DNA of 45,673 nucleotides, counting the filler, from Streblomastix strix (Eukaryota): the NCBI GenBank assembly GCA_008636045.1. It is 2 parts of 2 records of this genome, joined end to end, with 100 filler letters (N's around TTAATTAATTAA, not from the genome) between each part and the next. Parts side by side here need not be neighbours in the genome. Positions count along the whole stretch, not along the records: positions 22,897 to 45,673 come from SNRW01000308.1; 1 more part is not named here. One strand, 5' to 3'. Of this stretch, positions 434 to 45,673 are shown one piece after another. A model generated the notes under the pieces. It did no database searches. It was not told the DNA's origin and saw only the letters and a program-made list of their open reading frames with translations. Position 1 is the first letter of the stretch; each line of letters opens with the position of its first letter. The translations under genes and the position numbers were made by a program.

Positions 434-435
434 TT

Positions 436-884
436 CGCCTTTGTTCGAAAATATTATTGTATTTGTTAAATCATCAGTTAAAAAAAAGAACTTGCGTGGT
501 TTTTTATAAATACTAATTCCTTTTGAAGTTATTGCATAAATAACTATTATATACTACTACTTGCTTTGCAAAGTCATAGACTAATATGTGCAAAATAAAT
601 AATAAATATCAACACCCTTATATAAAATAATTAAAATAAATAAATAACGGTTAAAAAAAGCTTTTTAAAAAAATATCTCCAAAAAGCCCCCCACATGAAT
701 TTGTAATAATATACAACAACAAATAATGGATACACATAATTTTAGTAATAATTTTAGCATGGAGATTTAACAAAAAATGTCATAGCCACGGACCGTTCCG
801 GGTGTTCCAGGTGTTTCGAGTAAAAAAATTGCTATAAAAAAGTGTGGCCAATCGGATAAACTGACCAAAAAATTTTTTTTTCTT
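436..884 (+). repeat. Left terminal inverted repeat of element 1 (outer ~125 bp missing)
   Basis: Reverse complement of 20845-21288, roughly 95% identical by eye, with mostly transition differences. Confidence 0.95.
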
Positions 885-2511: not shown

Positions 2512-2561
2512 AAATATTTATAACCATATTTATTTTTTTAATATTTTTATTATCTATAAAA

Positions 2562-2978: not shown

Positions 2979-3003
2979 TATGATTTATTTTTGGATTATA
3001 AAA

Positions 3004-4210: not shown

Positions 4211-4235
4211 AAAATTTAATTTTATTTTTATATAA

Positions 4236-4376
4236 ATGATTTGGGAAATAATAACTAGTATATCATTAATGGTTATAGCTTGTAATGATTTGCTTGGTTG
4301 TATATTAGTAACAGCATAAATAAAAATGGATAGCGAAGAAATTATCGAAGAGGTTAGGAATTCAATATATGGATGA
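4236..4376 (+). CDS. 46-aa small membrane protein (MIWEIITSISLMVIACNDLL...)
   Basis: Hydrophobic N-terminus. Same-length homolog at 44105-44245 with the same stop position. Confidence 0.75.
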
Positions 4377-6467: not shown

Positions 6468-6491
6468 TTTAATATTTTTAAAAATAAATAA
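6468..6491. promoter_or_regulatory. 24-bp bidirectional spacer between the putative MCP and the amphipathic protein
   Basis: tttaatatttttaaaaataaataa versus tttaatattttaaaaattaataaa at 1793-1816. Confidence 0.45.
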
Positions 6492-6698
6492 ATGGGATTT
6501 TTCAGTGGTATAGCAAACATTGGAAGTAAAATTTTGGGAGATATTAAACATGCAGCTTAATGGGTAGCACCAACTCTTCATAAGGTACTATCAACAATAT
6601 CAGGCCCCGTAGGAATGATACACCCAGGAATTTGTGGAGCATTAGGTGCTGGGGCTAACCTTGCAGGAGCCGTGTATCGACTTGTAAATAAGCGTTGA
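6492..6698 (+). CDS. 68-aa Gly/Ala-rich amphipathic-helix protein, candidate membrane-penetration protein
   Basis: MGFFSGIANIGSKILGDIKHAAQWVAPTLHKVLSTISGPVGMIHPGICGALGAGANLAGAVYRLVNKR*. Intact and head-to-head with the putative MCP. Confidence 0.75.
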
Positions 6699-10677: not shown

Positions 10678-10733
10678 CCATAAAAATAAATGGTATGATT
10701 TTTATTTTCTATTTTTTTTAACTAATTATAAAA

Positions 10734-11303
10734 ATGGCTGAAATAAACGAATGGTAAATACTAGTTGTTGATAATGATTACGAAATCATGACTGAAGAAC
10801 CACACGTTATAAGACGAATTAGAGACTAATTTATTCCAAAAATTTGCGTCAATGGTCATGGTTATTAATAAATAAGATTAAGCGGATAATCAAAATAATA
10901 TCACCGTGTTTTAGCATAATAGTTTATACCAAATCCTAATAACTTACCTTAAATCGACCACAAAGACCGTAACCCTTTAAGTAATAGTTTGGCAAATCTC
11001 TGGTGGGTAACTTCTTCTGTTAACTTGAAAAATTGGTCATTTTATAAAGATATCGTTTTTGAGTATGTCCCTTAACTAACTGATGATGCAATAGTTGTGA
11101 ATGAGTATGGAAAATAACACTATGAATTCTTATAGTTCGATAATGATAATTTTTATTTCTATACAGATACAGTAAATAGATAATTGCTTATTAATGAAAA
11201 TAAAAATAATGGTATTTAGTTTGTATACGCTTATGATACAACTAATACCAGAAGGGCAATTTATCTCAATAAATTTAAGCAATTATACAATATACAATTT
11301 TGA
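10734..11303 (+). CDS. HNH homing-type endonuclease (HNH_3-like, 189 aa)
   Basis: HRVLAQQFIPNPNNLPQIDHKDRNPLSNSLANLWWVTSSVN. Open frame. Confidence 0.9.
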
Positions 11304-11322: not shown

Positions 11323-14300
11323 TCATTATACCATATAATCACTTGCTTTCAAACCAAATATAAATGGGCAAGAACTTTAATCACTTAGTACCACCATTTT
11401 TGTATGGCAGCCTGTTATTCTATTCCTTTCAGTAGATAACTTACTCATCTAATAATTCTTTCATCCGAGCCTCATATTCGTACATTTTGTAATTGTTCCG
11501 TTGGTTATATTATCCATTATTTAGTCTTTAGTTATTTTATTAGCATTTTGATTTACCCCTTTTAATTTTATTTTTTCTTTATCGCCAACTTTAATATAGT
11601 AATTTTTAGGTGCCAATGCAACTATTTCTGTACATTCACTTTCAATAGCCAAACCGAGTATCTTTTTCTCGTCCAACAAATCACCTTCAATTGTGGGGAA
11701 AAAATACTTAACATTTTCGTCACAAAACTATTAATTTTTTTATAACATGTTTAAACAATTATTTATGACCTGCATCCTCATCACTACTGACCGCCCAATA
11801 TGCTGAATCAGTCTCTCCTTCTACAATATGCAACTTGTCCATATACAAACACTTGCGCATGAAATTGTAAATGAAATTTAAGTACCAATATTTGGCATTG
11901 TCTAATACGAAATAAGCAACTTATAAAGAAGTTTTACATGCGCATGTCTCTGGATTCATATATATGGCATAAACATCATCGGCTAGTTTCTAATCATTAA
12001 TAAAAGTATTCGACAAATGAGCTTAAAGTGCTCGTTTTTCACTTATTATTTTTATCTTTGTATATTTCTCAGTGTTCATGCAATCACTTCCGTACGAGCT
12101 ATTCATATTGATTTTACAAAATTGTTCTAATCCTATTTACCCTTCAATTTTGGCCTAAATTCTTTGGCTTGTAAATTCTTTCACAAACCCATTGAACTTG
12201 TCATGTTTATCAAACAAAAGCAACTGTTTAACATCATCAATTATATAATGGCAGTTATCGATTAAAAACCATAAATAATAACTTGAAAAAGACATGTAGC
12301 CGTCCATAGTAGATAACAAATTGGTTAGCTTCCGCTACTTTTGATCTGTTTTAATTCCGCTATCTTTCATATGCTCGTACATGTATTTACCTATTGTTTC
12401 TACATTGGTCATAAGTTCATAATTCCTTAAAATTGATGGGAAATTAATAAAATCGTTCAAATAATTCTCATCAATATGTCCCTTTATTTCTACTATAAAT
12501 TATTGTCACCATTTATTAAATCTATTTTGGTTATTTATTATATTAATTATTTTTTGTTTATTTTCATCAGAATTATTCAATATTTTACCAACAACAGACC
12601 CATGCATATGCATCTTACCACCGGTATATTTAATAAATTTATGAGGTTCTGATGACATGACACTGGGATATAAAGAGTTGAAATCTATTCCTATTATATG
12701 TGTTATTTTATGGTCAGATGTTAAAAAGGTTACTGTTTTTGTCTCTTTATTATACCAAAATTTCTTTATATAGTCTTACCCTGCAATATTAACCCTATGC
12801 ATCACGTTAGAAAAGCCACCAGTTATGCCTTACCTGATTAGTTTATAAATATCAATGTCTGTTAAATTTGTTGGTAAGTGGTTGAAGCTGCAAAATCTTC
12901 CTAATTATATGAATAGTTTTTGGATGCTTTTGTCTTTATTCGAGCAAAAGGTGTTACAATACAAACAACACGGTGGTACGTTATCTTTTGAATGACCCTT
13001 TTTATTATCGATTCTATCAAATGTTGGCTTTTTATTTAGAGTGAATTCGTCGCTACAAATCGCACATTTGTTTTCATGAAATAGTTGTTTGAAATATTCG
13101 AAATCTGACTCTAAAACATTATTGGTTATATCTATTTTTTGTTGCAAATCCTACATTTTATAATAATATGCTTTACTATTCCAATATTTTTATTATAAAA
13201 CGAATTAAGGTGATTTATCGACTAATTTTGGATAATAACCATTTACATTAAACACTTTATAAGCTAGTGCATATTTAGTTGAATTTGCTCATGCAGCTAT
13301 TGACATAAAACTAAACATATCGATGACGAACTTCATCTACATTTGAATCAAAGCATCAATCGGTTCTTCCATTATTTTGGTATCCTGTTCATTTTAATTT
13401 TAAAGGAATTCCCATCTGTTTTTGAATAGCTTTGCATCTAAAACATATTAGTCATATTCTACTTACTTCATTGATGTATTTTTCAGTGTTGAATTGAATG
13501 ATTCAATTAGAAGTGGTTCTGATTAGTTTAAAATTTCTTTATAGTTACCAGTGTTTATAAATTCATAAGGAAATACACCTTTTAAACTATTGACTTTATA
13601 ATTAAAAGTTTATGCAAATTCTTTTAAAGTAATTGGTACGTAATAAATCAATAAATCAATAAATTTAAGCTTGACGTCCAAGTGCTTATGTTAAACAACA
13701 ATTTGCTTGGCTACTCCTGAACTGCCAATATAACTCTTTATTTCCCAGTCAGCGCATTATAAATTCCTGAATATTGTCGAAAAATCAAATTTTGAACTAT
13801 TAATTCCAATTACTGGTTCCTCCACATTATATTGCATGTTTTTATCTATAGTACCTGAGGAGGTGTCATATTGATTATCTTACTATATGATTACTGCCTC
13901 ATTGAACACCTGCTTTAACCATTGTGTTATAAAATCATCTCCATTTCGCAAATCGGAATATATTGTGTGAATGTCTTGTTTATTTTTAATAGTACAAGCA
14001 ACAGATAAAGGCACTAGTTCGGATATCTATTTGCTTGATTTACCAAATTATTTATTAACAATTTTTTTAACTGTTTCCAAGTCATATGTTATATAATATT
14101 ATGTAGGTTTAAACTCTTTTTATCTTCCATATGCCAAAAGGTATTAGTATGTTTTGTTTTATGTGATATATGGGCAAAACGGTTTTTATATCTAATCCAA
14201 TTAAATAGTCTTGACCAGTTTATCACCATTTTATTCGCACAATTTAGTATGTTTTTCATAGTCTCTTAGGAAATTTTTGCTTTTAGTATCAAACACTTTT

Positions 14301-15887
14301 GACTTGCAAAATAGACAAAATTTTAAACCAGTTAGTGCTTCCTTATTTGCTATAGCAAATGCGTGTTGCGCAAGTATTCCGTCAATTTCTTCCTAAACAA
14401 TTAGTATATCAACGGTTTGTACTTCCTGTTGCTCATTAGTTTCAATGTCTCCGTCTTGTTCCTGTTCCTCATCAACATATTTAATTATATCACCCAAATA
14501 ATAAACTTTGTGCTCATCATCATAAAAGTATATATTCTAATTAATCATAAACTTTTGTATTATAATTTAGGAGTATTTCATAAAGTCTAAACCTTCAAAT
14601 GTTTTTAAAAATTCAGTCATTTATCTACTTTTTGCATCGAATGGTAGATCTAATACCTTAACAAGATACTAACTGTTAATGCTTATAATTGAGTCCTATT
14701 TGTATCGTTTCTAATCGGTATCATGATTTAATGCTTTGGCTAGAGCTTCCATATAACACATATTATTTTCTCCATTATTTTTTTATAAAACTTTCTTGTG
14801 TCCATCCCAGTGTTTTTAAATCAATTCTTTGATACTTGACCCAACTACTACCTTTTACAATTTAAATATTTTAATCATCATCGAATAAATTGCTATTTGA
14901 CGTTCTTTTGTACTATCCAGATTATAATTTTACATGTCAATAATCTCCGTCTTTATATATTGTTTGTATTCATCAATATCGTCATGTGTTTATATATTCT
15001 TTGGTGTATATGTTTAGGTTCTTGCTTCTCGTGGCAATAAATGTTTATAACTAACAACTTTCTAACCATTTTTATCATGATCTAATTCTTCCACTATAAT
15101 ACCAAAATTGAATAGTATTTTTAATGCTCTATGATATTATTTGTTATAAATTGAATCAACAAATTCCTCTATTTTTTCCCAAGAATCTATGTAATTTTTA
15201 TAATATATTGGACTTATGCTATCGTCTGATATAATTTCCTTTTCACGTTAAAACCCTTACCTTGCACGTTTAACCTATTATTCAAATTTTTCATTATCAA
15301 TTGGTGGAAATAATGACAATGTTTCTGTCTCATTTTCAATTTAATTAAATTAATACCCTTCATTTTTTCTAATTTTTTCATATATTTCTTTGTTCTATTA
15401 TTAGCTTGTCAAATATAATGGAAGAATAAAATGGTCATACATTTCTTTAAAATTATCTGGTTTTGTAAATTTCTTTGACTCTTATAATAGCATCAAATCA
15501 TGTTCTTCATTCATTATTCGTATTGCTTATTCGGCTTATTATCTTTAGTAATCAGTCCAAAATACATCTGCTTCTTGTTGTTCTCTTTCTCTTCTATATT
15601 CTTATAAATTTTATTCATATTATTCATTTCTATGAACCGTTTTTTTAATTTAATAACGTTATAATCTAGCTTATTATATTCGTTATTCATATGCGTTTCT
15701 GCGGGCAACATGTTCCGTTATAAATTAGCTGAGTTTATTATAATTATTTTTTTCCTTAATCATAATGTTGAAAAGATAAATAACCTTACAATTTTTATCT
15801 TTATTGTGGAACTTTTAGTTTTTCATCGAAATTAGGCTAATTAATTTATATTAATTATATAAGTTATTATTTACGGATTGGGGCCAT
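11323..15887 (-). pseudogene. polB: Protein-primed family B DNA polymerase with an inserted endonuclease VII-like domain, disrupted
   Basis: ExoI YDLET, ExoII NSSKFD, KGVFPYE, motif A DFNSLYP (~12670-12690), motif B KINMNSSYG (~12090-12118), motif C EGETDS (~11805-11822), APKNY. CAIC...DRIDNKKGHSKDN...CLYCN insert at ~12950-13075. In-frame TGA at 13289-13291 and frameshifts. Confidence 0.93.
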
Positions 15888-15941
15888 TTATTTAAAATTA
15901 AAATATATAAAAATAATTTTGGAAAGAGAAAAAAATATGAT

Positions 15942-16265
15942 TCAAAGGGTTATTTAATGTTCATCAATATCGTCATCAAACTCCTGCTATAATTATGGAT
16001 ACGCATTATATAAATTGTTTATTGTTTCCAGGTTGTTTTCCATTATTTTTTTATAATGTTTTATCTGTTCTTTAGCATTATACACCACTTCATCAATTGT
16101 ATAACTAATAGTATGCAAATTAACTCCTATTGTTCCTTCACATTATTTAGTATAATTTGATGGATTTTATAGTTGCATTTCAAACCTTTTTATGTCCTAT
16201 AATGCTGTACTATAATGCAGCATTGATAATTCAAATGTCGTCAAAAATTTATTTTATTTATCCAT
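15942..16265 (-). CDS. Hypothetical protein (107 aa)
   Basis: Intact ORF. The 21 bp ending at its ATGG are identical to those of polB. Confidence 0.6.
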
Positions 16266-19627: not shown

Positions 19628-20839
19628 TCAAAATAATTAAAATGTTCTATTGTATTTTTCAGGTAATACATCAATTTTGTCAGCAACTTTATGCGTATAA
19701 TATACTGGAACTTCAACTGTTTTTATATCTTTATATGGTTTTAGCAACTCACATATAACATTGCCATGCTAATATTTTATAAATGTTGCTACCTCATTAA
19801 ACTACCTTCTTTTCTTTTAAAATCCATGAGGTGTTTTTGATAGATCCAAATGTATCATTATTATATTACCTTTTGTTAAATCTAGTTGTTTATTTTTGTT
19901 ATATAAGTCCTTTATATTTTTTAACTACTCCATTTTCTTACGTATAAATATACCTTCTAAATCCTCATTATCATTAACTTATGAAGGACTAAATGATTAT
20001 TTTTAAAGCTTTAAAACATTATGTTTTGTGTTGTTATATCCGTCAACTACTTGCTATATTTATTTGTTATTAGCCATTAGCTAAGGGTCATTTTCAAATG
20101 CGTTTTTTATTGTTCTTACTACTGAATCAACAACCCGATTTTTATTTATGAAAGGTGAAGAATTAAAAAAATATTTTATATTATTTTATTTTAAAAACTC
20201 CTTAATTTGTTTGCTACCTAAAGCCGCTTCACCATCAGAACGTATGTTATTAACATTTTAGTCTTTGATAAGCTACTTTATACATCTTAGTAGTTCGTTT
20301 GCTGTTTTATCCTTTAAAGGAAATACAACTAAAAATTTGGTATTAATATTGATGGAAAACAAATATTACTACACAATTTTATTAACTGTTTGGTGCATTA
20401 CAAAAATTATATCAATTTCCCAGCTCCCAAGCTCTGGTGAAAAATATGGCCTTTAGAATTTTTTTAACGGCTTTATTTTTATGTCTTATATTACATCATT
20501 TTTGTTTTAAATTTTTCTACAAAATATATTTGTTATTCGCTAAGGTTATTATTCTTGTTTTGGCTTTGCTTATGTCTTTGTTGTTTGTTTTATTCTTTCA
20601 GCGTGATATTTCGTGAAATTATCCAAATAAATTTTATACCATTATGATTTAGTTTTATTTTCAAATAATTCTTACAAATTGTTCATATTAAATTGTTTTT
20701 TAAAATGAAAATTTAAATTTCTTATAAAATCCTATAGTTTTATTTTATCGACTTTGAAAGCCTTATCATCAATAAATTTTATTTTTTATTAAAACATTTA
20801 TTATGTATTAAATTATTTTATCCCAATTATATAAGCCAT
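19628..20839 (-). CDS. Retroviral-like (rve) integrase, 403 aa
   Basis: WEIDIIF (D1), FSININTKF...PLKDKT, IRSDGEAA (D2), NKNRVVDSVVRTIK (third acidic residue), YNNTKH. Open frame starting next to the inner edge of the right TIR. Confidence 0.88.
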
Positions 20840-20844
20840 TCATC

Positions 20845-21413
20845 AAGAAAAAATTTTTGGTCAGTTTGTCCGATTAGCCACACTTTTTTATGGCAATTTT
20901 TTACCCGAAACACCTGGAACACTTGGTCCAGTTCGTGGCTATGACATTTTTTGTTAAATCTCCATGCTAAAATTATTACTAAAATTATGTGTATACATTA
21001 TTTGTTGTTGTATATTATTACAAATTCATGTGGGGGGCTTTTTGGAGATATTTTTTTAAAAAGCTTTTTTTAACCGTTATTTATTTATTTTAATTATTTT
21101 ATATAAGGGTGTTGATATTCATTATTTATTTTGCACATATTAGTCTACGACTTTGCAAAGCAAGTAGTAGTATACAATGGTTATTTATGCAATAACTTCA
21201 AAAGGAATTAGTATTTATAAAAAACCACGCAAGTTCTTTTTTTTAACTGATGGTTTAACAAATATAATAATATTTTCGAACAAAGGCGTTAGCCAGCTGT
21301 GAAAAAAATTTATAAATTGTAAGGCCAAAAGCTTAAAAAATGATGAAGTGGATACTTTTTATAAAACTGAATACTTTTTGAAGTTAGGGAATAAATCCCC
21401 ATTATATACTACT
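20845..21413 (-). repeat. Right TIR of element 1, including a terminal imperfect hairpin (21166-21413)
   Basis: 20845-21288 matches the left TIR. 21292-21413 is an imperfect reverse complement of 21166-21287, with apex GGC-GTTA-GCC. Confidence 0.88.
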
Positions 21414-22796: not shown

Positions 22797-22896
22797 NNNN
22801 NNNNNNNNNNNNNNNNNNNNNNNNNNNNNNNNNNNNNNNNTTAATTAATTAANNNNNNNNNNNNNNNNNNNNNNNNNNNNNNNNNNNNNNNNNNNN
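22797..22896. other. Artificial contig linker (44 N + TTAATTAATTAA + 44 N)
   Basis: Symmetric N runs around a six-frame stop spacer. Sequences on either side need not be adjacent in the genome. Confidence 0.97.
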
Positions 22897-31800: not shown

Positions 31801-34800
31801 GATCGTAGAGGAAAACAATTGAACTCTTTACACATATTTTATTTTCTTCTGGTTTTTTCTATCTTAATTATAATTTAAACTATTTAAGATTTATGCCTGG
31901 ATTTAGTGATGCAGAAGAATTTGCTATTCAATATCAAAGTGGAATGTAATAAAATTAAGAATAGGATGAGTTTAGTGGATAAATAAACTAAAAAGATATA
32001 AAAATAGATTATTTTCATGAATTATTTGACTAGAAAGAACAAATATAAAATTCTAAATACAGATAATCATTTATTTAACCAGTTTAGAATGAACTGCGAC
32101 ACAAAGTTCGCTCTCATTTGAGATAAGAAAAATTAAAATCAGATATATCAATTAATTAGTATTAATAACCAAATACATCTGAGGGAGATGAAATTAAACA
32201 AAATATTGATTAGAAAGACAATAAAAAGTATGATGAATTAATATAATAAGAAAATATATTAAAATAAATAGTAGAAACTAAGGAATCATAAAATAAAATA
32301 TAAATATAAATAGATTAATTAAATAACAATATCCAAATAAATGAACAGCAAAGAACATAATTCAAAAACACAGACATTGCAAATAAATAAGCATTATTAA
32401 GTATTGAAGCAGGAGCTGCTTAAGGTTTGACCAATAAATGGACTTTTCCAGATCAATTCGCAAGTTATGTTCGATGCCCACTGATTATTGATCCTTTTGA
32501 AGTTATTACTTGCTAAGATGAAAGAATTTTAGGTGGAAGATCAAATAGTTTATATTAAATATATGGAATAGATTCTCCTTCAAATTCTGCATTTGTAATA
32601 TCGCTTGCAGATCCCTAAGCTTATATAAAAATTGTTAATGCTTTACTAATAATATCTTCTTCATAAATTTAATAAACGATTGATGATTCTGAATAAAAAA
32701 ATAATTAGAGAAGTATAGATTAAGAAAAAGTTATATATAAAGTATTTTAAAGATATATTTAATAATAACCATTAAATAATAATGATGCATAATTTATTAA
32801 AAAATAATGCGAATAAGGGAAGCGAGTATGTTTAATTTTGAAAGATGCATGCGATTAAACAATTGACAATAGAATTCTTCATTTACTTGAAACATTTAAT
32901 TTCAGAAAGTTTGGATTTTAAGAAAAGAAAGATCTTTATCTTGAATCATCAATGAAATAGAAGAAGAAGAAGAAGAAAATAATTATTGGAAAGAAAAAGG
33001 AGAAAGCAGGATATAAAAGCCGAAAATCATCCGAAACTGGAGTTTCTAATAAAGATGCAATGGTTATAGACTAGAATGATAATAAGAACTTAACAAATGA
33101 AACAAAATAAAAAGAGATTAGTACATCTGATTTATTAGATCAACAGCTGCATACAAGTATTATGTAACAAAATTACTTTAAATTATAAAATAAAGTATCT
33201 GAGGAAGTAAATAAATCTATGAAACATTTGGGATATGGATTACAAAAAGTTAAAAAAGAAGGAATTTTTTAATTATCTCCTTTCAAATTAAAATTATTAG
33301 ATTGTGGTTTAATGAAAAATGTGAAACGAGGATATTAGAAAAGGAAGTAAGATAAAAAAAGATAAGAAGCTGAGAATATGTTATTGAATAAAAAGAGTGC
33401 TATAAACAATAGCGGCGAAGGTCAAAGTGCAGAAATTGGTAATAAAACTGCAGGTGCAATATAAACTATATCTAAAGACAAAGAAGATTATTATATTGAT
33501 AAAAGTGATGCTAGTTATACAAATGAAAGTGAGACGAATAATATGAAATAAAAAGATGAAAATGAATTAAGTTTAGATGAAGAATCAGAATTCGAAATAG
33601 ATAATGAGTTTGAAACCGAGTCAGAAACAATAGAATCTGTTGAGAGTTATGGAGCTGAACAAGATTTTGAAGAATTCTTTAAAGAAATTGAAAATAAACC
33701 CACTTAAAGAATAAAGACAAACATAAATTCATAAGGAAATAAAATAATTGAAGATGAATAGTTGAGCATATTTGATATTTTTGAGGTTGAATGGCTTCCA
33801 GAAATATTACTACCAAGATTGATGGATATAATCTTGATTGCACATGTAGGAGTTGGATTGACTTTCTCAGGATATTGGCGTGTTTGTACATCTCCTTTCG
33901 TATTGAGACCTTCTTTGGAAGTATTCAGTATGTGGTTATCTCCTCAAATTGGTGAAATTGTATCTGAACATGTAAAAACATATACAGCGCCTGAATTATT
34001 TGATGAAAATGTTAAATCATTATATCCCGAAATTGCAATACCATAAGAATTGGAAAAAAGAAGAGATGAATCATATGTTGATACTCTTGTTTTGGCTGGG
34101 AATCGTTGGATAAGATCTGCAGTTCCATTCAGCAAGTTGGATTATGTCTAAGATATTGAACATTCCGAAACTCTAAGAGAATAAATATAAAAATTTACTG
34201 GAATATCACATTATAAATCAAACCTTGAAAATGTTTATCACCAGCCAACAATAAAATCTTCCCAAACAGACTCTGTAATGGATGAAAATCTATTTTTATT
34301 TGAAGATTAAATTTATGGAATTAATTCTCGAGAATCTCAAACCAACCTTCCATAAGAAAACTATGATACGGTTAAAAGAAACTAACTTGATATAAAACGA
34401 TTAGAAAAGGAATAATTTGGTATAAATAAATTTTCTCAAGAAGAAGCTTCTGCATAGCTTGCAACATTAATTGTATGGTTGCCACAAAACGAAGTTGAAT
34501 ATAAGAAATAATCTCGAATTATTGGTATATTAGCACTAAGATCACGAGAATGCAAATCTTTATTGATTAATGTTCTGAATTGGCTAAACTTTTGTTTACT
34601 ATGGGAAGCTGAATAAGTGAGAGTACTAACAGATAATTTGGCAATAATTGGAGTAGCTTTAATCCGAATGGTTGGCTAACCATTTGGAGAAGGATCACCA
34701 CGAGGATGGATTTATATGAAGTTCCATTCAGTAATCTAACGATTAGTTGAACTTGTCTAATATATACTACATGTTGATGCAAAATAGAACAAACATGGAC

Positions 34801-37800
34801 GTGGAGTTGGATTGGAGATGAGCGCAACAGCATAAGAGATTATTATTGATAATTCACCAAAAGCTCAATACATTGCACCTAAATTACCATCATTTTTAAA
34901 ACCAGAAGAATAGAAATTACAATTGAGAGCTGTTCATCATACTTTGATTAGAATGCATCAAACAGCTGACACAAAATCATCTCCTATTGGAATCACATCA
35001 GAAGTTAATAATTCAATCATTTAACTTGTTGGATCAAAATATCTTGCTTGCGTTTAATAAACTGCATCATCAGATGCAGATTATATATCACAACTATTTT
35101 TCGTTACATTAAGCATGGCAAATCTAAATGGGAAAGGATTAAGTCCACTGGAGATGAATATTCTGATTCAACATAGTACATTCCTCATTCATTCTATCTA
35201 AAACAATATTTACAATGGACATTTGGAATAGTCCAATTTAGAATCTCCTGGATATATGTTCTCTTCAATATTATCTCACTTTCTCCCATTAGAAACTATT
35301 TCACTTCGATGCCAAGGATTAATACCAATGAATCCTGTATCAGGATGGTTAGCTCATGCAATGTGGGAGAATATCTTCACTCTTGCTGCTGTATGTAAAG
35401 TATTTCGCCCATTTATTCTGGATCTTGATCCTTTTGCATAAAATGTGTTTAATGTTATTGATTAACTTCCTCGAAGCGATGTAAACACCCAACAAATGAT
35501 ATTGCAAGCATTGAGATAAACAGCTGTTGCAAAAGAAGAAGGAAATAAGGATATGAGAAACGATGAACTAAATGAAGGAGGAAAGGGAAAGTCAATACTC
35601 AGTACTATGTAATACACAAGTGAATGGATGACTAATTAACATTAATTTGATTAATATATAATAAAAGAATTCAATCGAAAGAGATCAATATCTATTACAG
35701 ACTAAATATCATAGTGGAGAATGGGATTTGAAGAGAATGGAATTGGAGTAGGAAAAGGAAGTGGAGTTGGATTGATGCCATTCAAAGGATCAGAAAGAAG
35801 TGATTCAGATCAAAAAGCCAAAGTTGATAAGAGAGATAAATCATTTAAGAGCACAGATTTTAGCCTCAATTCACCATACACGATGATGACAAACATAGAA
35901 TCACTCGCTTCTTCTTTATTAGGTGGTATTGCTATTAATAATTAAGATAATAATATATTGACAGGAATTGGATTTGGGAATATGTACATGTAAGGAAAGG
36001 AATAAAGTAGAGATCAGATGAGAGGATAAAGTGGTAAGAATATTAAAGGTAAACGAGAAAGAATTGAAGATAAAATAAATGATAATCATTTAGAGATTGA
36101 AGTGGGACAATTAACATCCACCTAGAAAAGATGGGAGGAATGGTTCAACGATTCACAAACAGAACAACTTGAATTGCCGAACAGAGATATGCAGAATTTA
36201 AATATGTTCTAGCGAGTTATTTTAATATATGCTATAAGACCTTTCCGCGTAAAGAATGCAATGTAACTTGCAATTGCATCTAACTAACTTTTTGGTATAG
36301 ATGGAGCATATTATAAAGTTTCATTACCATCATAAACGGTGCAACACAATTCAACGCAGCAGTATTCATTATTAGTGCGCCCAAGTTCATATTTTTATTG
36401 TGGATAAATTTCTCTTGAAACTTATTTAAGTGGAGATCAATTAAAAAGATTTGTTGAAGTAAAAAAGAAAGCTGAAAAGGATAATATTTAGAATTCTCTA
36501 AAAAAATTAGAGAGTACTTAAACGATTGATTCATTGAGTGAAGCAGTGAACTTCTAAAACGCAGGCACCAAAATAATCGATCAAATTACAGAAACATCCT
36601 CAAACACTAAAATGAATCAGCAAATCATACTTTTAGCCACATAAGGATCAACAAATATGATGCCAATAAATGAACAAATGATAATAGAAGACATTGTAAA
36701 CTTTGGAGAGTTGAAGAATGTTCAAGTGCAGTAGATTAAAATACCAGATCTATATCGATCTACACGTGCAGAATTAGAAACTCCAAATATTTATAAAAAA
36801 ACGCACGGACTTAAACGGTAAATGTCAAACGAACTATATAAAGATATCAGTAAAGCGAGTTTAAATTTAGAAAGAAAAGAAAAAGAAATAAAACAACTGA
36901 AATAAAAAGGTGATATTTGGAGTTTGATTTGGTTAAAAGTGGAAAATATCTTAGAGAAAGCCTTAATGTACAATCATTGGGTGACATTAGATGGTATTGA
37001 TGTTAGTAATGAAACATTTGTTCGACGTCTTTCAACTTGGTGCGTATAGAATCTTAATTCTGAAACAAGAAGATATTTAATTTAAAATGCAGAAATGCAA
37101 ATTTCCCCTAGTGATGGATCATCACTTGGAAATTTAGCAACAGAAACGCCAATACGAGGATCAATTACATCATAAAATTAATATAATTTTGATTCTCCAT
37201 CTCATTCTCTATCAAAATAACTAAGTTCATCATCATAAATTACAGCATTATTACAAATATAATCTTCATCAAAAACGCTACCCAGTATTGCAAGTACTTC
37301 TCTTATTCATCCTTTATTAACAAATGTAGAATCACTTGCTTCAATTGAGTAAATCTAAGAAGTTAAATTTAATTCAGGTTAATAAATAGTTGAGAGGTAA
37401 CCTTTTGTTCTTTGGATTGTTTTACCCGAGAGTGCATGTCAATCTGCATCATCCTCTGTACATAAATTTAGTTTAGATTTTTTGTAAATAGCAAAAACAT
37501 TCATGATTCGAGTGCCATGCACATTTAGTGGAGTTATGTTACAATCTCTTTTGAAAAGTGTGGAAATCTGTGGAAATGATAAGATGTATGACGTAGCTCG
37601 ATATTATGAACCAACAGCAACAAAAGAATCATTGACGAACAGACAGATTGTACATTTATTGTTTGTACTGATTACAATATATTCACTTGTCACTGAATAC
37701 TATCGAACAAGAGCTTCCATCATGGAATCGAGATTAATTCGAGTTTCATCTCTTTCAGCAATACGACTTGTGAACTTTATATTGTCTCCGCCTGCCATTT

Positions 37801-40679
37801 CAAAAGTTCGCGCACAATTTGGATTGCCTTAAGCATAACGACCCCCAATACTAGAGACATGGAATTGGGTGAAAATTTAAACGAGTCTTGTACTTAGATT
37901 ATTTCCATCATTAATAGGAGTGATTGACCACCGAATTCCACGATATCTTCTATCATAATTATTAAACGCAGATACATTCAGTACCGATTTTGCTCCAAAT
38001 ATATTTCCATTCATTCCAAATCCAACTCAAGAAACATACTTTTCTGAATATCCCCAATATTTAAATGCATTTTTGAAGTCATCGCATCAAGCCTCACTAA
38101 TGGCAAGGAGATAAGATATAAGCAGTGGGAAGAAAGAATCATTTGTAGAGAGCTGCATGCGATATTCAATTGGAAGCTAAGACTTTCTTCAGCCATTCTT
38201 CATTTCACCTTCTGGTATTCTATATGACATTACTGGAACAAGGACATGGGCACCTATGTCAGATTAAGGAGTATTATTCTAGCGATTACGAGTATTATTT
38301 GCATCAGAGAAATTCCCTCTTTAAGCTTCATGCAAAATGGCGCTTGTCTCATCATGGGGACCATACTTACATCCTGCAATAATAATCAGACAATGTGAAG
38401 AAATTAAAGAACTATTGAAGAAATAGATGTTCAATTTAGAATCATTAACGCAGGCATGTTCTCTAATTTGCAATGGCGAACACAGGATTCCTCCAACAGT
38501 TAATGCTCTTCTACGTGAAACTAACTTGATCAATATAGTTGTTTCTAAAGTTTATAACTTTTTAGATAACGTCCCACAGTTCATGACACAAATAACGTCA
38601 CAAGGACTTAATCACAATGCAAACAAGGATGACAATGATTTTCGAAGTGGAATGCTACATGGAGATATTAACAATAAATATCGGAATTAAAATAAAACTC
38701 TGTCATATGAAGATGAAACATCAGGATGGGAATATTTCACACACTCCGACACTAGTCAAGAAATGAATATTGGACTCAGGAACTATTCAAACTCATTTGT
38801 TAGAACTTGGAAAGCATTATAGTAAGGATAAGTACCAGAAGAATGGATTGGAATATCAATTGGTTATTTATCAGTAGGAATATAAAAACGAGGAGGATAA
38901 TTACGATTACCTGTTCTGTTATTATGGTTAAACTTCATTCTTGGAGCAATTGAACAGATTCATAGATGTTTTTCATTTGTCCCATCAAGACATAGACTTG
39001 TAGGAATAACTGAAGCTCCATACTCTACATCTTTAATGCTTACAAGAGGAATAATCCACTTCACATAACCTCTAGCTATTGTAACACCACAACTCTTTCA
39101 ACCAGAAGCATTCATTACATTTGTAAGACAGGAAGCAGAATTGGCTATTAGTTTGGAAAGATAAATGCATAGTATATAGTAGCGTATGTAGATAATGGGT
39201 GGATTTGGCTCTAACTTCCATGAAGATGATGATGATGGAGTTGGATATGATGATATTGGAGGAGGTCATGTTAATGAAATTTATTAAGGACCAACTCATA
39301 CAGGCAAAAAGAGAGAATTAAAGAGTTACCCTTCTGTTGCACAATAATCCTAATATTTACAGAGAAGAAATACGGATAAAGATAATCAATCACTTATTGG
39401 ATAAAATTAGAATTTTTATAATAAATAAAGCTCGCCTGGAGGAATTTATGGATCGAATGCTATAATAGAAAGTACTCGAAGAATGTCATACTCACTTTCA
39501 AGAGGATAGAGCCTAAGTAAACTTGCATTGAATACGATTGTAGGATAATCATACAATCTTCAAAATGTTAATGTGGCGAGTGTTCGAAGAATGATTAATT
39601 AATATACCCATCCTTTTCTTTTGGCATATCACTTAATGAAACCTATTTCTCTATCTGATTTACATATACTTTATTTACCAAGTAATTTAAACTCGTTGGA
39701 TGATATTGGATTTTTGCAATCACCATCTCTTTACAATCGTGTACTGAGTCATATGTATATTGGTGGTTTATGGTTTTGGAGTCCAGCTGGAGTAGGTTTT
39801 GATCAGCACAAAGTTGAATTATTTACAAACGTGAATATTTAAGAAGTTGTTCTAAGATCAACAGCTGAATAAATTCCAAGTGAAAATATGGACAAAATTG
39901 GCGATTCTGGGAGAAGAATGAGTATGAATATGCATATTGCTGATTCTACTGGTGCACAAGTTGGAGGAACCAATAATATAAACAGTGATAATTATGCATT
40001 ATCGAATACTATGCAATTCGGTAGAAACATAAATATATCTTTCCTCGCCACCGATGACTTTAGTGGTGGTACAACTCATTAGACTGGTCGAGGATCATCA
40101 TAGACTTTGCTTTAAAGATAATCAACATTGGGGAACACAGGTACTTAAAAATCTCGCTCATTTGAGTTAAATTCCAAACTTTTGTTGGTAACACTTCCAA
40201 AAGAACCTTCACCGACAACCTCATAAATAGATTTTGTGCTGAAGAACGTAACTAAGAAATTATTAACTTTTGATGAGCCGTCGCGTATTGATTGCCTATA
40301 AGCAGAATCATCTAAGACATAAATTCCTATATATGGATTGCCTCTTTCACGTTCGATGGTCTGCATACGTGGCAGAGATGGATAGATGTACATGTGGAAT
40401 GAAAAAGATGGTGGATAATCTACATTAATTACAAATACTGTAGAGAGTTTGAAAGCTATTGATGAATCATTCCTTGAAAGTAACAAATTGGCTATCATAC
40501 CTTTGGGCATGATAGGATTAGGTCCTTAGCGAATAAACAGATTCGCTTCGATCATCACAAAAGACAATAGAAAAATGAAACCAACCCAACCCCTTTACGA
40601 TGTGAATATGATAGTTACTGCTTCACCAACAATGATTGATATGCGTCTTTCGAATACTTTTCTCTTAATGAGCAGATGA
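22899..40679 (+). CDS. Highly divergent dynein heavy chain-like protein, 5'-truncated, ~5,900 codons
   Basis: Ten + strand ORF-track fragments from 23211 to 39888 share one frame, which closes at TGA 40677. AAA1-like YGMEW..., MGRNMYTFQC, EGRT..EVPDDMEGIFR, LCSEGF; AAA2 KCEQVLQ...VVLSGPPGCGKT; stalk coiled coils; WEEW...LP...NMFQRVILIYAIRP. In-frame introns cannot be excluded. Confidence 0.82.
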
Positions 40680-41176
40680 TTCAATTGATTCACTTCAAGT
40701 ACACTGATTTAACTTTTCAATCTTTAAAATTGTATTTATCAACTAATTTTTTTTTTGAGATTTTAAAATAATTATTTTTATTCAATAATTTATTTAAATA
40801 TATTTATTTAATATCTTTTAGTAATAAAAACTTTATCTTATATCTAAACTATTTTTCATCAAGTTTTCTTTATAATAATAATAATCAAAAATCAAGTTAA
40901 ACTTTAAATTAAAGTCCTTTATTTGAATAATTAATTTTATTTTTATATTAAGACAGTTGCTCTTACTGAGTCAGTTTATTAAAATAATATAATTAATTTA
41001 CAGTTTTATTAAATCCAATTTTAGTAGTACCTTCTTCATCCTTAAATTTGATTACTCTTTTAGTAACTTTAATTGCTTCTTATTCATCAACATTGTCATA
41101 TAACTATAGTGCAACTGACGATAATTTACTGTTTCTTCTTAAATTAAATATTATTGAAATGAGTTTGAAAAACAAA

Positions 41177-41475
41177 AGAAGATATTATTGGCGAAATTGG
41201 CTCTATTTTTAAAATCGTGGACAAATCCAAATAATAAACGCGTCAGAATTAAGCTCGCCTGATACGTCTAAAATATCATACTAACCTTCAAAATTAGCTT
41301 GCAAATTGATCATCAATAATCATGGACTAATGCTTAAAAATAAACGTACAGGAATACAACGTTTCATCATAATAGTTTCTATACCCCAAAACAGCTCGCT
41401 TAATTCTGCTGGTTTATTCTTTACATTTGCCCTACTATTTTAGAAATATTGTCAATTTCGCCAATAATATCTTCT
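41177..41475. repeat. Imperfect palindrome at the left end of element 2
   Basis: Perfect 23-bp outer stem (41177-41199 / 41453-41475), imperfect pairing to 41254/41398, and apex taatcat-GGACTA-atgctta centred on the same axis. Confidence 0.85.
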
Positions 41476-41508: not shown

Positions 41509-42065
41509 TCAATATAGCTCAAACTCATTAATATATCTTTCACTGACTTACTCTTAAATTGGTTATTCTTTTTCTATTGGTTCTTCTTTAATTATAGGCT
41601 CCTTAACTTGCATTGTAAATCTAACTCCAGATTGTTTCATTGATTTAAGTTTATTCTTATATTTATTAATTTACTTTTATGCTTCGATATGTTATTCCTT
41701 AATGAATTAATTTTCAGTTCGTAATTTAATTAGCTCTTCAAGATCAATCTATGGAGTAGTATATTTAATAATTGGTTATTTTTATATTGCTTTAACCTTC
41801 TTTTTAACGACTGGAACTTATACTTCTTATTTTTCTTCACTTTCATCTGATTCATCTTAAACATTAATCGTTCGTCTTATTGTTTTATTACCGACATTTA
41901 TGTTAGTATCTTATTTTATTATGCTTGTGTTTATATTTAAGGGTTCTTTTAACCATCTTCATTTATATTAATCTACTTTCCTATTTGCTTTAGATATCCA
42001 CCATTAAAGCTTTCAAAAGTTGTTCCATTTTCATTTAATTTTCTTAGGGCTTATGATTTATCCAT
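41509..42065 (-). pseudogene. Hypothetical protein A homolog (one frameshift)
   Basis: MDKSQALRKLNENGT...PQIDLEELIKLRTEN...NEFELY*. Length is 3n+2. Confidence 0.75.
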
Positions 42066-42096: not shown

Positions 42097-42843
42097 ATGA
42101 TTTCAAGTATTCAGAAGAATTAGCTCCGTATGAGTAAATCAAAGAGACAGATTGAAGATATGAAAAAATAGCTATCAGAAGAAGATAAAATAAGATTGCA
42201 ATTGATCGATAATGCTATCAGTAGGATTAAATCAATGCCTGCTATTGATGAAAGTACCAACTCCGTTGGCGACATAAATGCTAGCAAACCTAAAGAAAAT
42301 GCTATATAAATTGAGAATGAAATTATCACATCAACGCCTGATTAATTGATCCTAACAGAATAAAAAATTACTAAGTATAAGAGTAAATATAATAAAGATA
42401 AATATAAACAAGTAGATAGAACGACAGCATAAGTTGAACCAGATGAAGTAGTTAAAAATACTTATCTTTCCCACACTAATTTGCTGGTAATGAAATTCAT
42501 TATTGACAAATTATGGGCGAAAGTCAATACAAAAAAAAGAGGAGATGATTTTATACTTTCGTCAGATAATTTTATTAAACTTTGGTCATTAATTATTTAA
42601 GAGAATGAAAATGATATTGAAATTGTATTAGAAGAACCTTTGGTAAGATCCCGTTCATATATAGGTAAACCATATAAAAAGAAAGATATAGTTAGAGTAA
42701 TTGATATTTTAATTAAGAATGTATCAGTTAAAGTTATTGATAATGTCCTATATAATTCTATTGAGAAACTGTATCGAGTTAACTGTGATTTTGTTCGTTT
42801 ATCTGATGCTCCTACATCAGAGATAACAAAAGATGATTTCTGA
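42097..42843 (+). CDS. Hypothetical protein B homolog (248 aa, intact)
   Basis: Open in code 6, includes ORF-track fragment 42640-42843, and aligns with 1817-2511. Confidence 0.85.
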
Positions 42844-42890
42844 TATTTATTTTATCTATAACTTTTTAATTATTTTTACCAATAATATAA

Positions 42891-43337
42891 ATATTCCAAT
42901 CTGAAATCATTAAAGATGGAATAATTGTTCATCCTTATATTAATATAACAAAGGAAATTAACGTCGAACCAATATACTAATGTGGTGACGATTTTTATTA
43001 ATGTACTATGAACAAATGGAATAAACACTATTTTAAGTTATTAAAGCGATATGATAATAATCCAACTATTATTCCTTAAACAGTTTATATATTGATTGAG
43101 AATAGAAATAATACACATATTGATGGGTTAATTTAACAATATACTTAATAGATAAAGGAACTTAAAGATCTAACATCTCAATAATATCCTAATATTAGAC
43201 ATTTCACTGATTAGAAAGCAGTCAAGTATCGTGAACTGAAAGAAGCTATTGTTTAGATGTAATCTATAAAATAAAATTAGTACGGCTAGTTCAGTATTAA
43301 ATGTGAAGTTAATTGTATAAATAATTTTTTTGATTGA
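42891..43337 (+). pseudogene. Hypothetical protein C homolog; expected start reads ATA
   Basis: Open frame aligning with 2562-2978, with no ATG at the equivalent position. Confidence 0.7.
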
Positions 43338-43357
43338 TCCAATTTATTTTTATCTAA

Positions 43358-44110
43358 ATGGAATCATTAATCGAACCTTCTGAAGAGGAGCTAATTAATA
43401 TACAAAAATAACTGTAAGAGATATAATAAAAATAAGAGGAAGTAAAGTAATTAGAAAATCTATAAAAATAATTAACCTCTTTCATCGATACAGAGATTAT
43501 TAAACTGTTTACTTATTTCAGCTAATACATGAAAACTAAGGATGTTGATTTATCTCACATGTTAACATTAAATATTGATCAAACAGTAGCAGGATACAAA
43601 TAATTCGTACAATCAATCGTTGCAGATTAATTTATAAAAATTAATGGAACATCAAACTAATTACTATTAGCTAATCGAGTTACTATTGATAAAGATAAGT
43701 TAGACTATTAACCTATTGAAGTTGCAACATAATAATTAATTGCATATGGAATGTATGAATAACAAATATGGGGTACATTAATGACTTAATATGGTAGAGT
43801 ATATATATCTCTGTAAATAACTCACTCTGATCCTAATACATTAACAGAATCAGGATATATTATGTTTTCAATTATTAATAATGCTATAAAACCTAAATTT
43901 ACAGGAACAACTAGAAACATACCTATAAATGCGGTTATGTTTCCGTAAAAGGGATAAGGTTATCCAATATTATGGAATAGAGCAATTCCTATTGATTGTT
44001 TTATTAATCCTAATGGTAATGTTATAATTAATACAATGTGTGAGCTTCATTTACCGGATGACATTTGTGTTTAGTTTTGTGATTCATATGCTATTAATAA
44101 TTATTCATGA
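43358..44110 (+). CDS. Putative fibre protein 1 homolog (250 aa), lacking the central module
   Basis: DQTVAGYKQF...NQLLLAN, RVYISLQITHSDPNT, KPKFTG, IDC, CVQFCDSY shared with 3004-4051. Confidence 0.75.
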
Positions 44111-44245
44111 ATATAATGAATTTATTAATTCATCACTAATTTCTTCATTATCTATTTTTACCTGTTATATTGTTTTTATACAACTTAATAGATGATTACA
44201 AGCTATAATCATTAATGAAATACTGCCAATAATTTCCTATATCAT
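44105..44245 (-). CDS. 46-aa small membrane protein homolog
   Basis: MIQEIIGSISLMIIACNHLLSCI...NSLYS*, aligning with 4236-4376. Confidence 0.75.
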
Positions 44246-44262
44246 TTAAATTAAAAATAAAT

Positions 44263-45294
44263 TCAATTACGCAATATTTCAAATCGTTATAACCACTTAT
44301 TGATTACAATAAGCTCATGTTTATTCAATGTATTATATAATATCATTAGCTCTTATTCTGATAGTGTGTTTATATTATTTTCATCATAAATCTATTTCAA
44401 ATCACTCTCACCAAGGTTAATTCCAAGCACTATCGCATGACATAATATTCGGGCTGTTTTAAACAAGTATTACATTCGTTATGCTACAAAGAATTAGGAA
44501 TTTTTAGAATGTCAACTATCACTGACGAGATGAGTAATTGTATGAGATAACTATGAAGTATATCTTTATATATCTGTGTTTGATCCAATATAATCAAAGA
44601 TTATTAACGAAGATAAGAATTTATCATTTTAAAGTATAGGTAATTTTAGTGTTTTAATTATTGATACTACATCTTCATCTATCTCTTATGTATCAATTAT
44701 TTTTAATCTACTTTCATAATTGACAATTTAAATTAACGGTGGGATAACGAATTACATTAATTTTATAGGTTAGTTATATTCGTTAATTGTTTCAATACAA
44801 TAGATTTTAAATTATTCCTTCATTTTAGTTATAAACTATTAATATATGTCATCCTTCTTTAACTCATTTGCTTCTATCATACTTTATTTACTATGTTTAA
44901 TATAATCGCTATTGTAATCAATATTCATTTGCTTTAATTTCCAATAGGTATATATCTCTTTAACCTTGTATTTAATTTCATCGAACTATGGTAAGAACAT
45001 CATTGCTTATTCGTAAGTTATATTATTAATTGATATATTTTTATCTTTCATATTTAACGCCATACTTTCATCAGGTCCCATATTTGAGAAGTATAATATA
45101 TAGGGGTTAATTACATGTTTATACAATACGATTAGTTTATTCATTAATGTTGTTTTACCACTTCCAACAGCTCCTACAATATAATGGTTTGTGTTAATTG
45201 GAAAGATTGAATTCTTCGCTACTGGTTTCGTTTTATATTCATCTAACATATTATATGTATCAAACTATATTTGCTTTATTTCAGATAGACTCAT
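44263..45294 (-). pseudogene. Packaging ATPase homolog with a nonsense codon at the arginine finger
   Basis: GAVGSGKTT and IIFDYIG. SDS*HSKN (TGA 44512-44514) where element 1 has CGA. Confidence 0.88.
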
Positions 45295-45673
45295 TTTAAT
45301 TGTTTTAATTAACTTTTAGATAATTAGGTATTAATAATGCTAAGCTAATTTAATATCTTTATTGTCAATCGCTAATTATACTAACTAATATATCTCGTCA
45401 ATCGTATATTAATTCCAATGTTGATCCTTTTCAATTAATATTTTACGATGATAGAAGAATTTCACAACATATATAGGGTGGAGAATTAATCCGTCCAAAC
45501 AGACTAGTCTAATAGAAGTATAAGTATGATTTATATTATATATATAATTTATATACATTTAATAGAATAAAGAAAATGTAACAATTAGAATTTTGTTTTT
45601 CTATTTATTTGATTAGAATTTTAAATTTTTATAAAAATTGGAGCAATTTTGCATAAAATTTAATTTCTTGTTA

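What the first reader, a model, noticed from the sequence alone, without database searches (positions are those of the whole stretch)
41177..41475. Independent ~300-nt terminal hairpin in element 2 starting 5'-AGAAGA
Seen: a perfect 23-bp outer stem, diverged pairing for ~55 more bp and an apex stem on the same axis, lying 34 bp from the stop of the first element gene. The sequence does not align with the element 1 hairpin. Inference: structure is conserved without sequence, and the perfect outer stem suggests selection on a protein-binding end. Diverged arms argue against an amplification chimera.
Basis: partly seen in the sequence, partly recalled or inferred. Interest (0 to 1): 0.7.

Follow-up and report, generated by a model that had tools for sequence, protein, structure and literature searches.

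The report
Fold-back end of termite-gut protist Polinton
A real 299-base DNA hairpin sits exactly where a decayed virus-like transposon (Polinton) of a termite-gut protist meets the broken polymerase gene of another such element, so it is likely the transposon's end and would likely help restart copying of its DNA, a feature only recently reported in related viruses.

Summary
The hairpin at 41177-41475 is real: a perfect 23-bp outer stem, arms significant for about 80 bp, z = -9.2. The inner 140 nt and the claimed apex stem are not above chance. The window reads in code 6 and matches Streblomastix strix proteins. The hairpin lies where related element 1 has its terminal repeat. Multi-copy DNA does extend left of 41177, but it is a broken piece of another Polinton's polymerase gene, and that gene does not resume beyond the hairpin. 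So 41177 is a junction between two elements and probably element 2's left tip. Element 1 carries an unrelated 248-nt fold-back in its own terminal repeat, ending in the canonical (AGT)2 motif, and its polymerase has a terminal-protein-like fold. Best reading: a terminal fold-back that rebuilds a double-stranded origin for protein-primed replication (0.4). Rivals: an independent mini-element (0.22), rolling-hairpin priming (0.15), a neutral by-product (0.13). The right end, target-site duplication and sister flanks could not be read. Terminal palindromes were reported in 2026 in Halocafeteria virophages and PLVs, mostly in elements without pPolB, so this is a new variant, not a new kind.

The parts
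41177..41475 (.). 299-nt imperfect palindrome starting 5'-AGAAGA and ending TCTTCT-3'; probable left terminal fold-back of Polinton element 2
41177..41199 (+). outer arm of the perfect 23-bp stem, starting with an (AGA)2 tandem motif; probable element tip
41453..41475 (-). inner copy of the 23-bp tip, inverted
41200..41256 (.). diverged arm, pairing with about 41396-41452 at about 76% identity
   Evidence: 0 of 500 shuffles; blastn 41177-41254 with 41398-41475, 83.5%
41257..41395 (.). spacer; on-axis pairing not above chance; weak 6/7-bp apex at 41317-41336
40711..41168 (-). relic of the N-terminal (terminal-protein) region of a pPolB gene from a different Polinton family, with a nonsense stop at 40885-40887; homology is solid to 41160 and plausible to about 41168 across a one-base frame change
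41509..42000 (-). element 2 gene 1 (unknown function; start approximate), homologous to element 1 gene at about 1150-1800; stop 33 nt from the hairpin
42097..44110 (+). element 2 genes 2-4, same order as element 1 genes at about 1860-4050
44105..44268 (-). inverted 164-bp relic matching element 1 4213-4376; the roughly 5 kb that element 1 has between gene 4 and the ATPase is absent here
44257..45654 (-). element 2 P-loop (packaging-type) ATPase, frameshifted, 52% identical to the element 1 ATPase; element 2 runs off the window end
21166..21413 (.). comparator: 248-nt full-length fold-back at element 1 right end, (AGT)2//(ACT)2 tips, on-axis apex GGC-GTTA-GCC
436..880 (.). comparator: element 1 left TIR (about 95% identical to 20845-21288); holds only the inner hairpin arm and stops in the apex loop
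171..432 (.). third, unrelated AG..CT palindrome (24-bp perfect stem counting the flanking T/A, AT-rich interior) capping the element 1 left TIR
11461..16093 (-). element 1 pPolB in pieces; LF/PAD-like terminal-protein fold at about 14845-15220; Cys and His at vOTU-like places (14767 and 14374 motifs, by eye); HNH-like Cys-rich insert near 12950-13070 (by eye, no Pfam hit)
19628..20839 (-). element 1 rve integrase next to the right TIR
   Evidence: Pfam rve E=3.9e-05, below the curated cut-off

Best explanation
The palindrome is likely the left end of a decayed Polinton-type endogenous virus of Streblomastix that probably inserted into another Polinton's polymerase gene, and it would likely serve as a fold-back replication origin. 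Shown: the palindrome, its place at the junction between a foreign pPolB relic and element 2's first gene, and a like fold-back inside the TIR of related element 1. Inferred: the tip motif is present twice, at 41177 and inverted at 41475, so a displaced single strand could fold at its own end into a short duplex identical to the normal double-stranded tip. The terminal protein and pPolB would start second-strand synthesis there, using the tandem (AGA)2 for jump-back initiation, with no need to pair the two ends of a 20-kb strand. Selection would then act on the first 15-25 bp of both arms and on the ability to pair, not on the sequence further in. That fits the identity gradient and the unrelated hairpin sequences of different families. 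I put the terminal position alone at about 0.7 and position plus this mechanism at 0.4.
For: Synteny with element 1's left end. Left flank is an internal pPolB fragment: 5 of 16 S. strix proteins tested hit 40708-41160, and 15 of the 16 hit element 1's pPolB. No continuation of that gene on the far side or inside the hairpin: in 18 frame tests the best was reached by 12 of 200 shuffles. No TSD of 2-9 bp around the hairpin. Element 1's right-end fold-back ends in the published (AGT)2//(ACT)2 motif (PMC8097293, passages), and its inner arm is part of both TIRs. A perfect 23-bp run is unlikely at the 76% identity of the next arm segment (0.76^23 = 0.002; similar for the other two palindromes; a post hoc estimate). 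Element 1's pPolB residues at about 14845-15220 match the little-finger/PAD domain of Y-family polymerases in all 50 entries listed (best Z 6.2, rmsd 3.1, 103 aligned), the signature of Polinton terminal proteins (10.1101/2024.03.18.585575, passages). Tandem end motifs are tied to jump-back protein priming, and panhandle origins are the standard though unproven model (PMC11886824, passages).
Against: Element 2's right end, its TSD and its own pPolB lie outside the window, so the mechanism is borrowed from element 1 (ATPases 52% identical). No contig shown spans the 41176|41177 junction (32 of 4893 pieces shown). The hairpin bin has the lowest depth in element 2 (143.6 in X1 against 464-90,712 in the other bins from 41470 on; 0 in X2 and X4), and abundant relatives leave the sequence at 41632, so most of the family does not share this hairpin. 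Whether they have their own was not visible. The shape (80-bp arms, unpaired spacer, perfect tips) is also that of a MITE. Only 33 nt separate hairpin and gene, whereas element 1 has about 320 bp more TIR and one more gene. The terminal-protein model has mean pLDDT 36.7 and Foldseek E of 0.03 or worse, and Z about 6 is middling. A folded 3' end could equally self-prime.
Confidence: 0.4

Rival explanations
1. The 299-mer is an independent non-autonomous element (a MITE, or a mini fold-back moved by Polinton integrase through its AG..CT ends). It landed near element 2's end or in the pPolB relic, and a later adjacent deletion brought the two flanks together.
For: TIR-plus-spacer shape with perfect tips and an unpaired interior. 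Low depth relative to element 2 genes but about six times the host level in X1, and present in X3, where host bins are 0-0.49 (depth is not copy number). The 171-432 palindrome looks MITE-like (TA..TA option, AT-rich interior) and sits in a hairpin apex, a known preferred target of one DDE transposase (RAG; PMC1618415, passages). Earlier AI notes describe fold-back mini-Polintons in other genomes (unchecked).
Against: No TSD at 2-9 bp. The two flanks belong to different elements, so a second event is needed. The position matches the expected terminus. Element 1's right hairpin is part of its TIR.
Confidence: 0.22
2. The palindrome is the terminus but works as a self-priming hairpin, as in parvoviruses. 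The folded 3' end primes synthesis, a nick at the base of the stem (perhaps by the HNH-like insert in pPolB) resolves it, and the hairpin flips each round, so both arms must keep the tip sequence.
For: A flush 3' fold-back is a perfect primer-template (geometry). Flip-flop would explain the perfect outer stem and tolerated inner mismatches (AAV model, PMC11575299, passages). The same model is proposed for Halocafeteria elements. HNH inserts are known in pPolB2 (PMC10748475, passages), and a Cys-rich HNH-like stretch is visible by eye in element 1.
Against: The family keeps a terminal-protein-like domain and tandem tip motifs. The HNH-like stretch has no Pfam hit. No HUH/Rep family among 22 ORFs scanned. 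The one comparison available, element 1's two inner arms, shows the same orientation, which is expected half the time under flip-flop.
Confidence: 0.15
3. The palindrome is the terminus but has no function of its own. It arose once by fold-back repair of a broken end and then decayed, and only the outer tip is under selection.
For: The interior no longer pairs. The Halocafeteria authors name accidental annealing as an alternative. Element 1's left TIR lacks the outer arm.
Against: The inner copy of the tip is as perfect as the outer, while the next 55 bp have lost about a quarter of their pairs. Three unrelated sequences show the same gradient.
Confidence: 0.13
4. An amplification or assembly artefact produced the inversion or the junction.
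For: The region is highly repetitive and fragmented in the Logan contigs, no shown contig spans the junction, and the window has N gaps at 22797-22895.
Against: The two halves differ by 36 substitutions plus indels, unlike a fresh inversion chimera. Hairpin-like sequence is also laid in run X3 of a second study. The host gene and pPolB relic lie on one contig piece, 39500-40983.
Confidence: 0.05
5. The palindrome acts as RNA, as a 3'-end or polyadenylation hairpin of gene 1, like the mimivirus hairpin rule.
For: It lies 33 nt after the gene 1 stop. The mimivirus rule exists (PMC4402537, search listing and abstract start only).
Against: Element 1's right hairpin lies upstream of the integrase gene, not downstream. 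No Rfam family reaches its gathering score. The polymerase-type tip motifs would be unexplained.
Confidence: 0.05

Closest known systems
Terminal palindromes of endogenous virophages (subtypes 1, 2, 5, 6) and PLV subtype 4 of Halocafeteria seosinensis (bioRxiv 10.64898/2026.07.28.741278; passages and section 7 read)
   Same: Palindrome at the tip of the terminal repeat of an rve-integrase, virus-like element of a protist; hairpin role in replication proposed, not shown.
   Different: There the illustrated palindromes are 52 nt, were found by a near-perfect screen (4 mismatches or fewer, gap 10 or less) and go preferentially with non-pPolB replication genes. Here they are 250-300 nt, imperfect, carry the tip motif on both arms and, in element 1, go with a pPolB that has a terminal-protein-like fold.
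Polinton/Maverick elements, Metamonada MCP group of S. strix (PMC10120064, PMC8097293, PMC10748475; passages)
   Same: pPolB, rve integrase, P-loop ATPase, TIRs, AG..CT tandem end motifs, host genetic code 6.
   Different: The word 'hairpin' does not occur in the main text of these three papers. (AGA)2 is not among the end motifs named in the passages read. The capsid fold could not be confirmed here.
Adenovirus and PRD1 panhandle origin (PMC11886824, passages)
   Same: Protein priming; a displaced strand rebuilds a duplex origin by pairing of inverted repeats.
   Different: There the two genome ends pair with each other; here one end could pair with itself over 300 nt.
AAV inverted terminal repeat and rolling-hairpin replication (PMC11575299, passages)
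   Same: Terminal palindrome whose folded 3' end could prime synthesis.
   Different: AAV has a T-shaped 125-nt palindrome, a Rep nickase and flip/flop forms; none of these is shown here.
MITEs (definition recalled)
   Same: About 300 bp, non-coding, terminal inverted repeats best at the tips.
   Different: No TSD and no continuous empty site around this copy.

Membership tests
Polinton/Maverick | protein-primed family B polymerase with N-terminal terminal protein | tested here: met
   Element 1 only: Pfam DNA_pol_B_2 E=7.4e-06, just under cut-off; LF/PAD-like fold, Z 6.2, from a low-confidence model. Element 2's own gene is outside the window.
Polinton/Maverick | rve-type integrase | tested here: met
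   Element 1 19628-20839, Pfam rve E=3.9e-05, below the curated cut-off; not in the visible part of element 2.
Polinton/Maverick | packaging ATPase | tested here: met
   Walker A ATPase in both elements, 52% identical; only weak generic P-loop Pfam hits.
Polinton/Maverick | [quoted passage not shown] | tested here: inconclusive
   Candidate 4663-5529 has 175 homologues, all 120 listed from S. strix; model pLDDT 41, no fold, PDB-sequence or Pfam match. The region is absent from element 2.
Polinton/Maverick | terminal inverted repeats at both ends | not testable with these tools
   Element 2's right end is beyond the window, no genome is held, and no sister locus was found. Element 1 has them.
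Polinton/Maverick | AG..CT tandem end motif | tested here: met
   Element 1 right end (AGT)2//(ACT)2 as published; element 2 has the variant (AGA)2.
Polinton/Maverick | 5-8 bp target-site duplication | not testable with these tools
   Element 2: second end missing. Element 1 read as 171-21413: 4 of 5 bases match, chance about 0.05 for one length, and 8 lengths were looked at.
MITE | short non-coding element with TIRs | tested here: met
   no coding-like codon profile in the hairpin
MITE | TSD flanking the element | tested here: not met
   No exact match at 2-9 bp.
MITE | flanks form one continuous empty site | tested here: not met
   Left flank is a pPolB relic, right flank is gene 1's 3' region; no continuation.
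MITE | many dispersed copies in unrelated flanks | tested here: inconclusive
   Depth above host level in the hairpin bin, but flanks of the copies are not shown.
Halocafeteria-type terminal palindrome | palindrome within the TIR, next to the TSD | tested here: inconclusive
   Within the TIR for element 1's right end; inferred for element 2; no TSD read.
Halocafeteria-type terminal palindrome | short near-perfect palindrome, preferentially in non-pPolB elements | tested here: not met
   299 nt, imperfect, 140-nt spacer; related element 1 encodes pPolB.
Parvovirus-type rolling hairpin end | flip and flop orientations among ends | tested here: inconclusive
   One comparison only (element 1 inner arms, same orientation).
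Parvovirus-type rolling hairpin end | HUH Rep nickase | tested here: inconclusive
   No such Pfam family among 22 ORFs scanned, many of them broken.

The most novel reading that the evidence does not exclude
Streblomastix Polintons keep protein priming but also use long terminal hairpins as interchangeable caps. The hairpins flip by rolling-hairpin resolution, perhaps nicked by the HNH-like insert in pPolB, and the integrase reads only the AG tip plus the structure. That would let element 1 move as one unit with two unrelated hairpins at its ends (171 and 21413, flanks matching at 4 of 5 bases), the left one joined exactly at the apex of the older hairpin.
Probability: 0.12. Interest if true: 0.8.

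Novelty: new variant of a known kind. Interest (0 to 1): 0.42.

Why it matters
How Polintons copy their ends has not been shown by experiment in the papers read here. If long fold-back ends occur in a family that also keeps a terminal protein, hairpin ends are not just a substitute for protein priming, as the Halocafeteria correlation suggests. S. strix holds many copies of these elements, so one genome-wide look at end orientation (fixed or flip/flop) and at TSDs would separate a local panhandle origin from rolling-hairpin replication. As it stands this is one copy in a decayed element, and the function is inferred.

Tried and rejected
No whole genome is held. DNA pattern scans for sisters gave only chance hits: 1 metagenome locus and 22 viral loci with one arm only; 24 viral loci with 10-11 bp stems and no similarity to the hairpin; 0 in genome contigs. 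The search for related loci found no relative for gene 2, integrase or ATPase in viral contigs or for the ATPase alignment in genome contigs. Word-based protein searches for the left-flank fragment found nothing; the full HMMER search did. No RNA holder was listed, which says nothing on expression. In one search none of the 15 joints shown (of 78) skips the hairpin; the rest were not visible. I first read the depth left of 41177 as element 2 extending further, or as its 'gene 0', and rejected this once the fragment proved to be mid-pPolB. A weak 7-residue match between P0124 and gene 1's tail (E=8) does not fit the spacing and was rejected. The capsid fold attempt failed. The Rfam scan gave one sub-threshold chance hit outside the hairpin. 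No earlier scan notes lie on this genome or on look-alike DNA. Kapitonov and Jurka 2006 is not held and is known here only through other papers. No wide VIA fold search was obtained.

Full report
Setting. The window has only 8 ORFs of 80 aa or more under the standard code but long ORFs under table 6, including a 5891-aa host gene at 23004-40679. The holders of the DNA are termite-gut metagenome runs. All 120 listed of 175 homologues of an element 1 protein are named Streblomastix strix. Bellas et al. report code-6 endogenous viruses of the Metamonada MCP group in this species (PMC10120064, passages). Element 1 (about 436-21413) has TIRs, an rve integrase, pPolB pieces, an ATPase and an HNH gene. 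Element 2 starts near 41177 and runs off the window.

The observation. The outer stem is exactly 23 perfect bp. The fold has z = -9.18, and -49.1 kcal/mol compares with a mean of -19.2 (sd 5.2) for 300 tiled 299-nt windows. Identity between the arms falls from the tip inward: 24/25, 20/26, 19/25, 16/30, 14/27, 12/24. Positions 0-23 and 23-80 beat all 500 shuffles; positions 80-149 do not (94 of 500). The apex pairing is 6 of 7 AT-rich bp and appears in neither fold. The gene 1 stop is at 41509-41511. The hairpin does not align with either element 1 palindrome.

Is 41177 the end of element 2? Element 2's genes follow the order of element 1's left end, so the hairpin lies where the TIR is expected. 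Laying Logan contigs (X1, X2 and X4 are one sample and may be the window's source, X3 is a second study) showed a single host contig piece ending at 40983. Summed depth in X1 jumps from 22.7 to 7987 in 40879-41075, falls to 143.6 inside the hairpin, and is mostly 5,000-90,000 over the genes. So repeated DNA does lie left of 41177. That stretch has a coding-like codon profile on the minus strand. A full HMMER search gave 2 hits (E 1.3e-16 and 1.4e-8), both S. strix proteins. One runs on into exonuclease motifs and aligns with element 1's pPolB at E 2e-44. Of 16 such proteins, 5 hit 40708-41160 across a nonsense stop, and 15 hit element 1's pPolB. The left flank is therefore a decayed internal piece of another Polinton's pPolB, cut off within 8-16 nt of the hairpin. 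Its upstream part is not found inside or beyond the hairpin, and no TSD of 2-9 bp surrounds the hairpin. The simplest history is that element 2 inserted into an older Polinton, with 41177 as its tip. This is an inference: the second end, the TSD and a contig across the junction were not seen. Abundant relatives diverge from element 2 at 41632 (loose ends in X2 and X4), so the hairpin sequence is specific to a small subfamily, though some hairpin-like sequence was laid in X1 (about six times host depth) and in X3.

The comparator. Element 1's right end is a 248-nt fold-back significant in all three segments (0 of 500 shuffles each), with a real on-axis apex. It ends in (ACT)2, the published Maverick end motif (PMC8097293, passages). 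Its inner arm is also in the left TIR, so it belongs to the terminal repeat. Each inner-arm copy differs from the outer arm at a different single base near the tip, which implies about 15 perfect bp when the element was active (inference). The left TIR stops inside the apex loop and is joined to a third, unrelated AG..CT palindrome at 171-432. All three palindromes pair best at their tips and share no sequence.

Mechanism. An AlphaFold model of element 1's pPolB N-terminal part is poor overall (pLDDT 36.7). Still, residues 61-185 match the little-finger/PAD domain of Y-family polymerases in the top 10 Foldseek rows (E 0.03-0.08) and in all 50 VIA rows (best Z 6.2, rmsd 3.1, 103 aligned). Krupovic et al. 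give this fold as the Polinton terminal protein, followed by a vOTU domain with Cys in a helix and His in a strand (10.1101/2024.03.18.585575, passages). A Cys and a His lie in such elements here (by eye). The family therefore likely keeps protein priming, and tandem tips suit jump-back initiation. With the tip present twice in inverted order, a displaced single strand can rebuild a duplex tip locally, a short-range form of the panhandle model (PMC11886824, passages). This explains why the inner copy of the tip is as well kept as the outer. The same geometry also allows 3'-OH self-priming with flip-flop as in AAV (PMC11575299, passages). pPolB2 enzymes can carry an HNH insert (PMC10748475, passages), and one is suggested by eye here but not by Pfam. 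Only orientation counts among sister ends can separate the two. None of these steps is shown.

Rivals. A MITE-like or Polinton-mobilised mini-element has the same shape and remains the main rival (0.22), but it needs a second deletion to explain the missing TSD and the unlike flanks. A neutral fold-back (0.13) does not explain the perfect inner tip. An artefact (0.05) is unlikely with 36 substitutions between the halves and signal in a second study. An RNA 3'-end role (0.05) does not fit element 1's right end.

Comparison and novelty. A full-text search for polinton, hairpin, terminal inverted repeat and palindrom gave 11 papers, and one for virophage, terminal, hairpin, palindrom and integrated gave 10. 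Judged from the listings, one describes terminal palindromes in such elements: the 2026 Halocafeteria preprint (passages and section 7 read). It finds them preferentially in non-pPolB elements and proposes hairpin priming. Only one held paper names both Streblomastix and polinton, and the word hairpin does not occur in it. Subscription journals and bioRxiv supplements were not searched. Earlier unchecked AI notes report similar ends in other genomes; they are leads, not support. Verdict: a real feature, probably a Polinton terminus, a new variant of a recently described kind, function inferred. Interest 0.42.

Noticed in passing
window 171-436 and 21166-21413: Element 1's left TIR breaks off inside the apex loop of the hairpin seen at its right end and is capped by an unrelated 262-nt AG..CT palindrome. 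The flanks of 171 and 21413 match at 4 of 5 bases. Either a nested insertion at a hairpin tip or a swapped terminal cap.
   Followed up: partly
window 40711-41168: Relic of the terminal-protein region of a third Polinton family's pPolB directly after the host gene's stop; the rest of that element is gone.
   Followed up: yes
window 12950-13070: Cys-x-x-Cys ... DRIDN ... CxxCN stretch inside element 1's pPolB, resembling the HNH insert of pPolB2; no Pfam hit.
   Followed up: partly
window 44105-44268: Element 2 lacks the roughly 5-kb block that holds element 1's capsid candidate and keeps an inverted 164-bp piece of its edge; it may be a capsid-less subfamily, since relatives are deep on both sides.
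   Followed up: no
window 4663-6500: Frameshifted candidate major capsid gene with 175 homologues, all 120 listed from S. strix; fold not resolved.
   Followed up: partly
window 10695-11303: HNH_3 endonuclease gene in element 1 between ATPase and pPolB (Pfam E=3e-06).
   Followed up: no
window 23004-40679: Single 5891-aa intron-free host ORF under code 6 with a Walker A motif near residue 600; not characterised.
   Followed up: no
window 22797-22895: Two runs of N around a short AT palindrome, between a host multigene-like ORF and the giant ORF.
   Followed up: no
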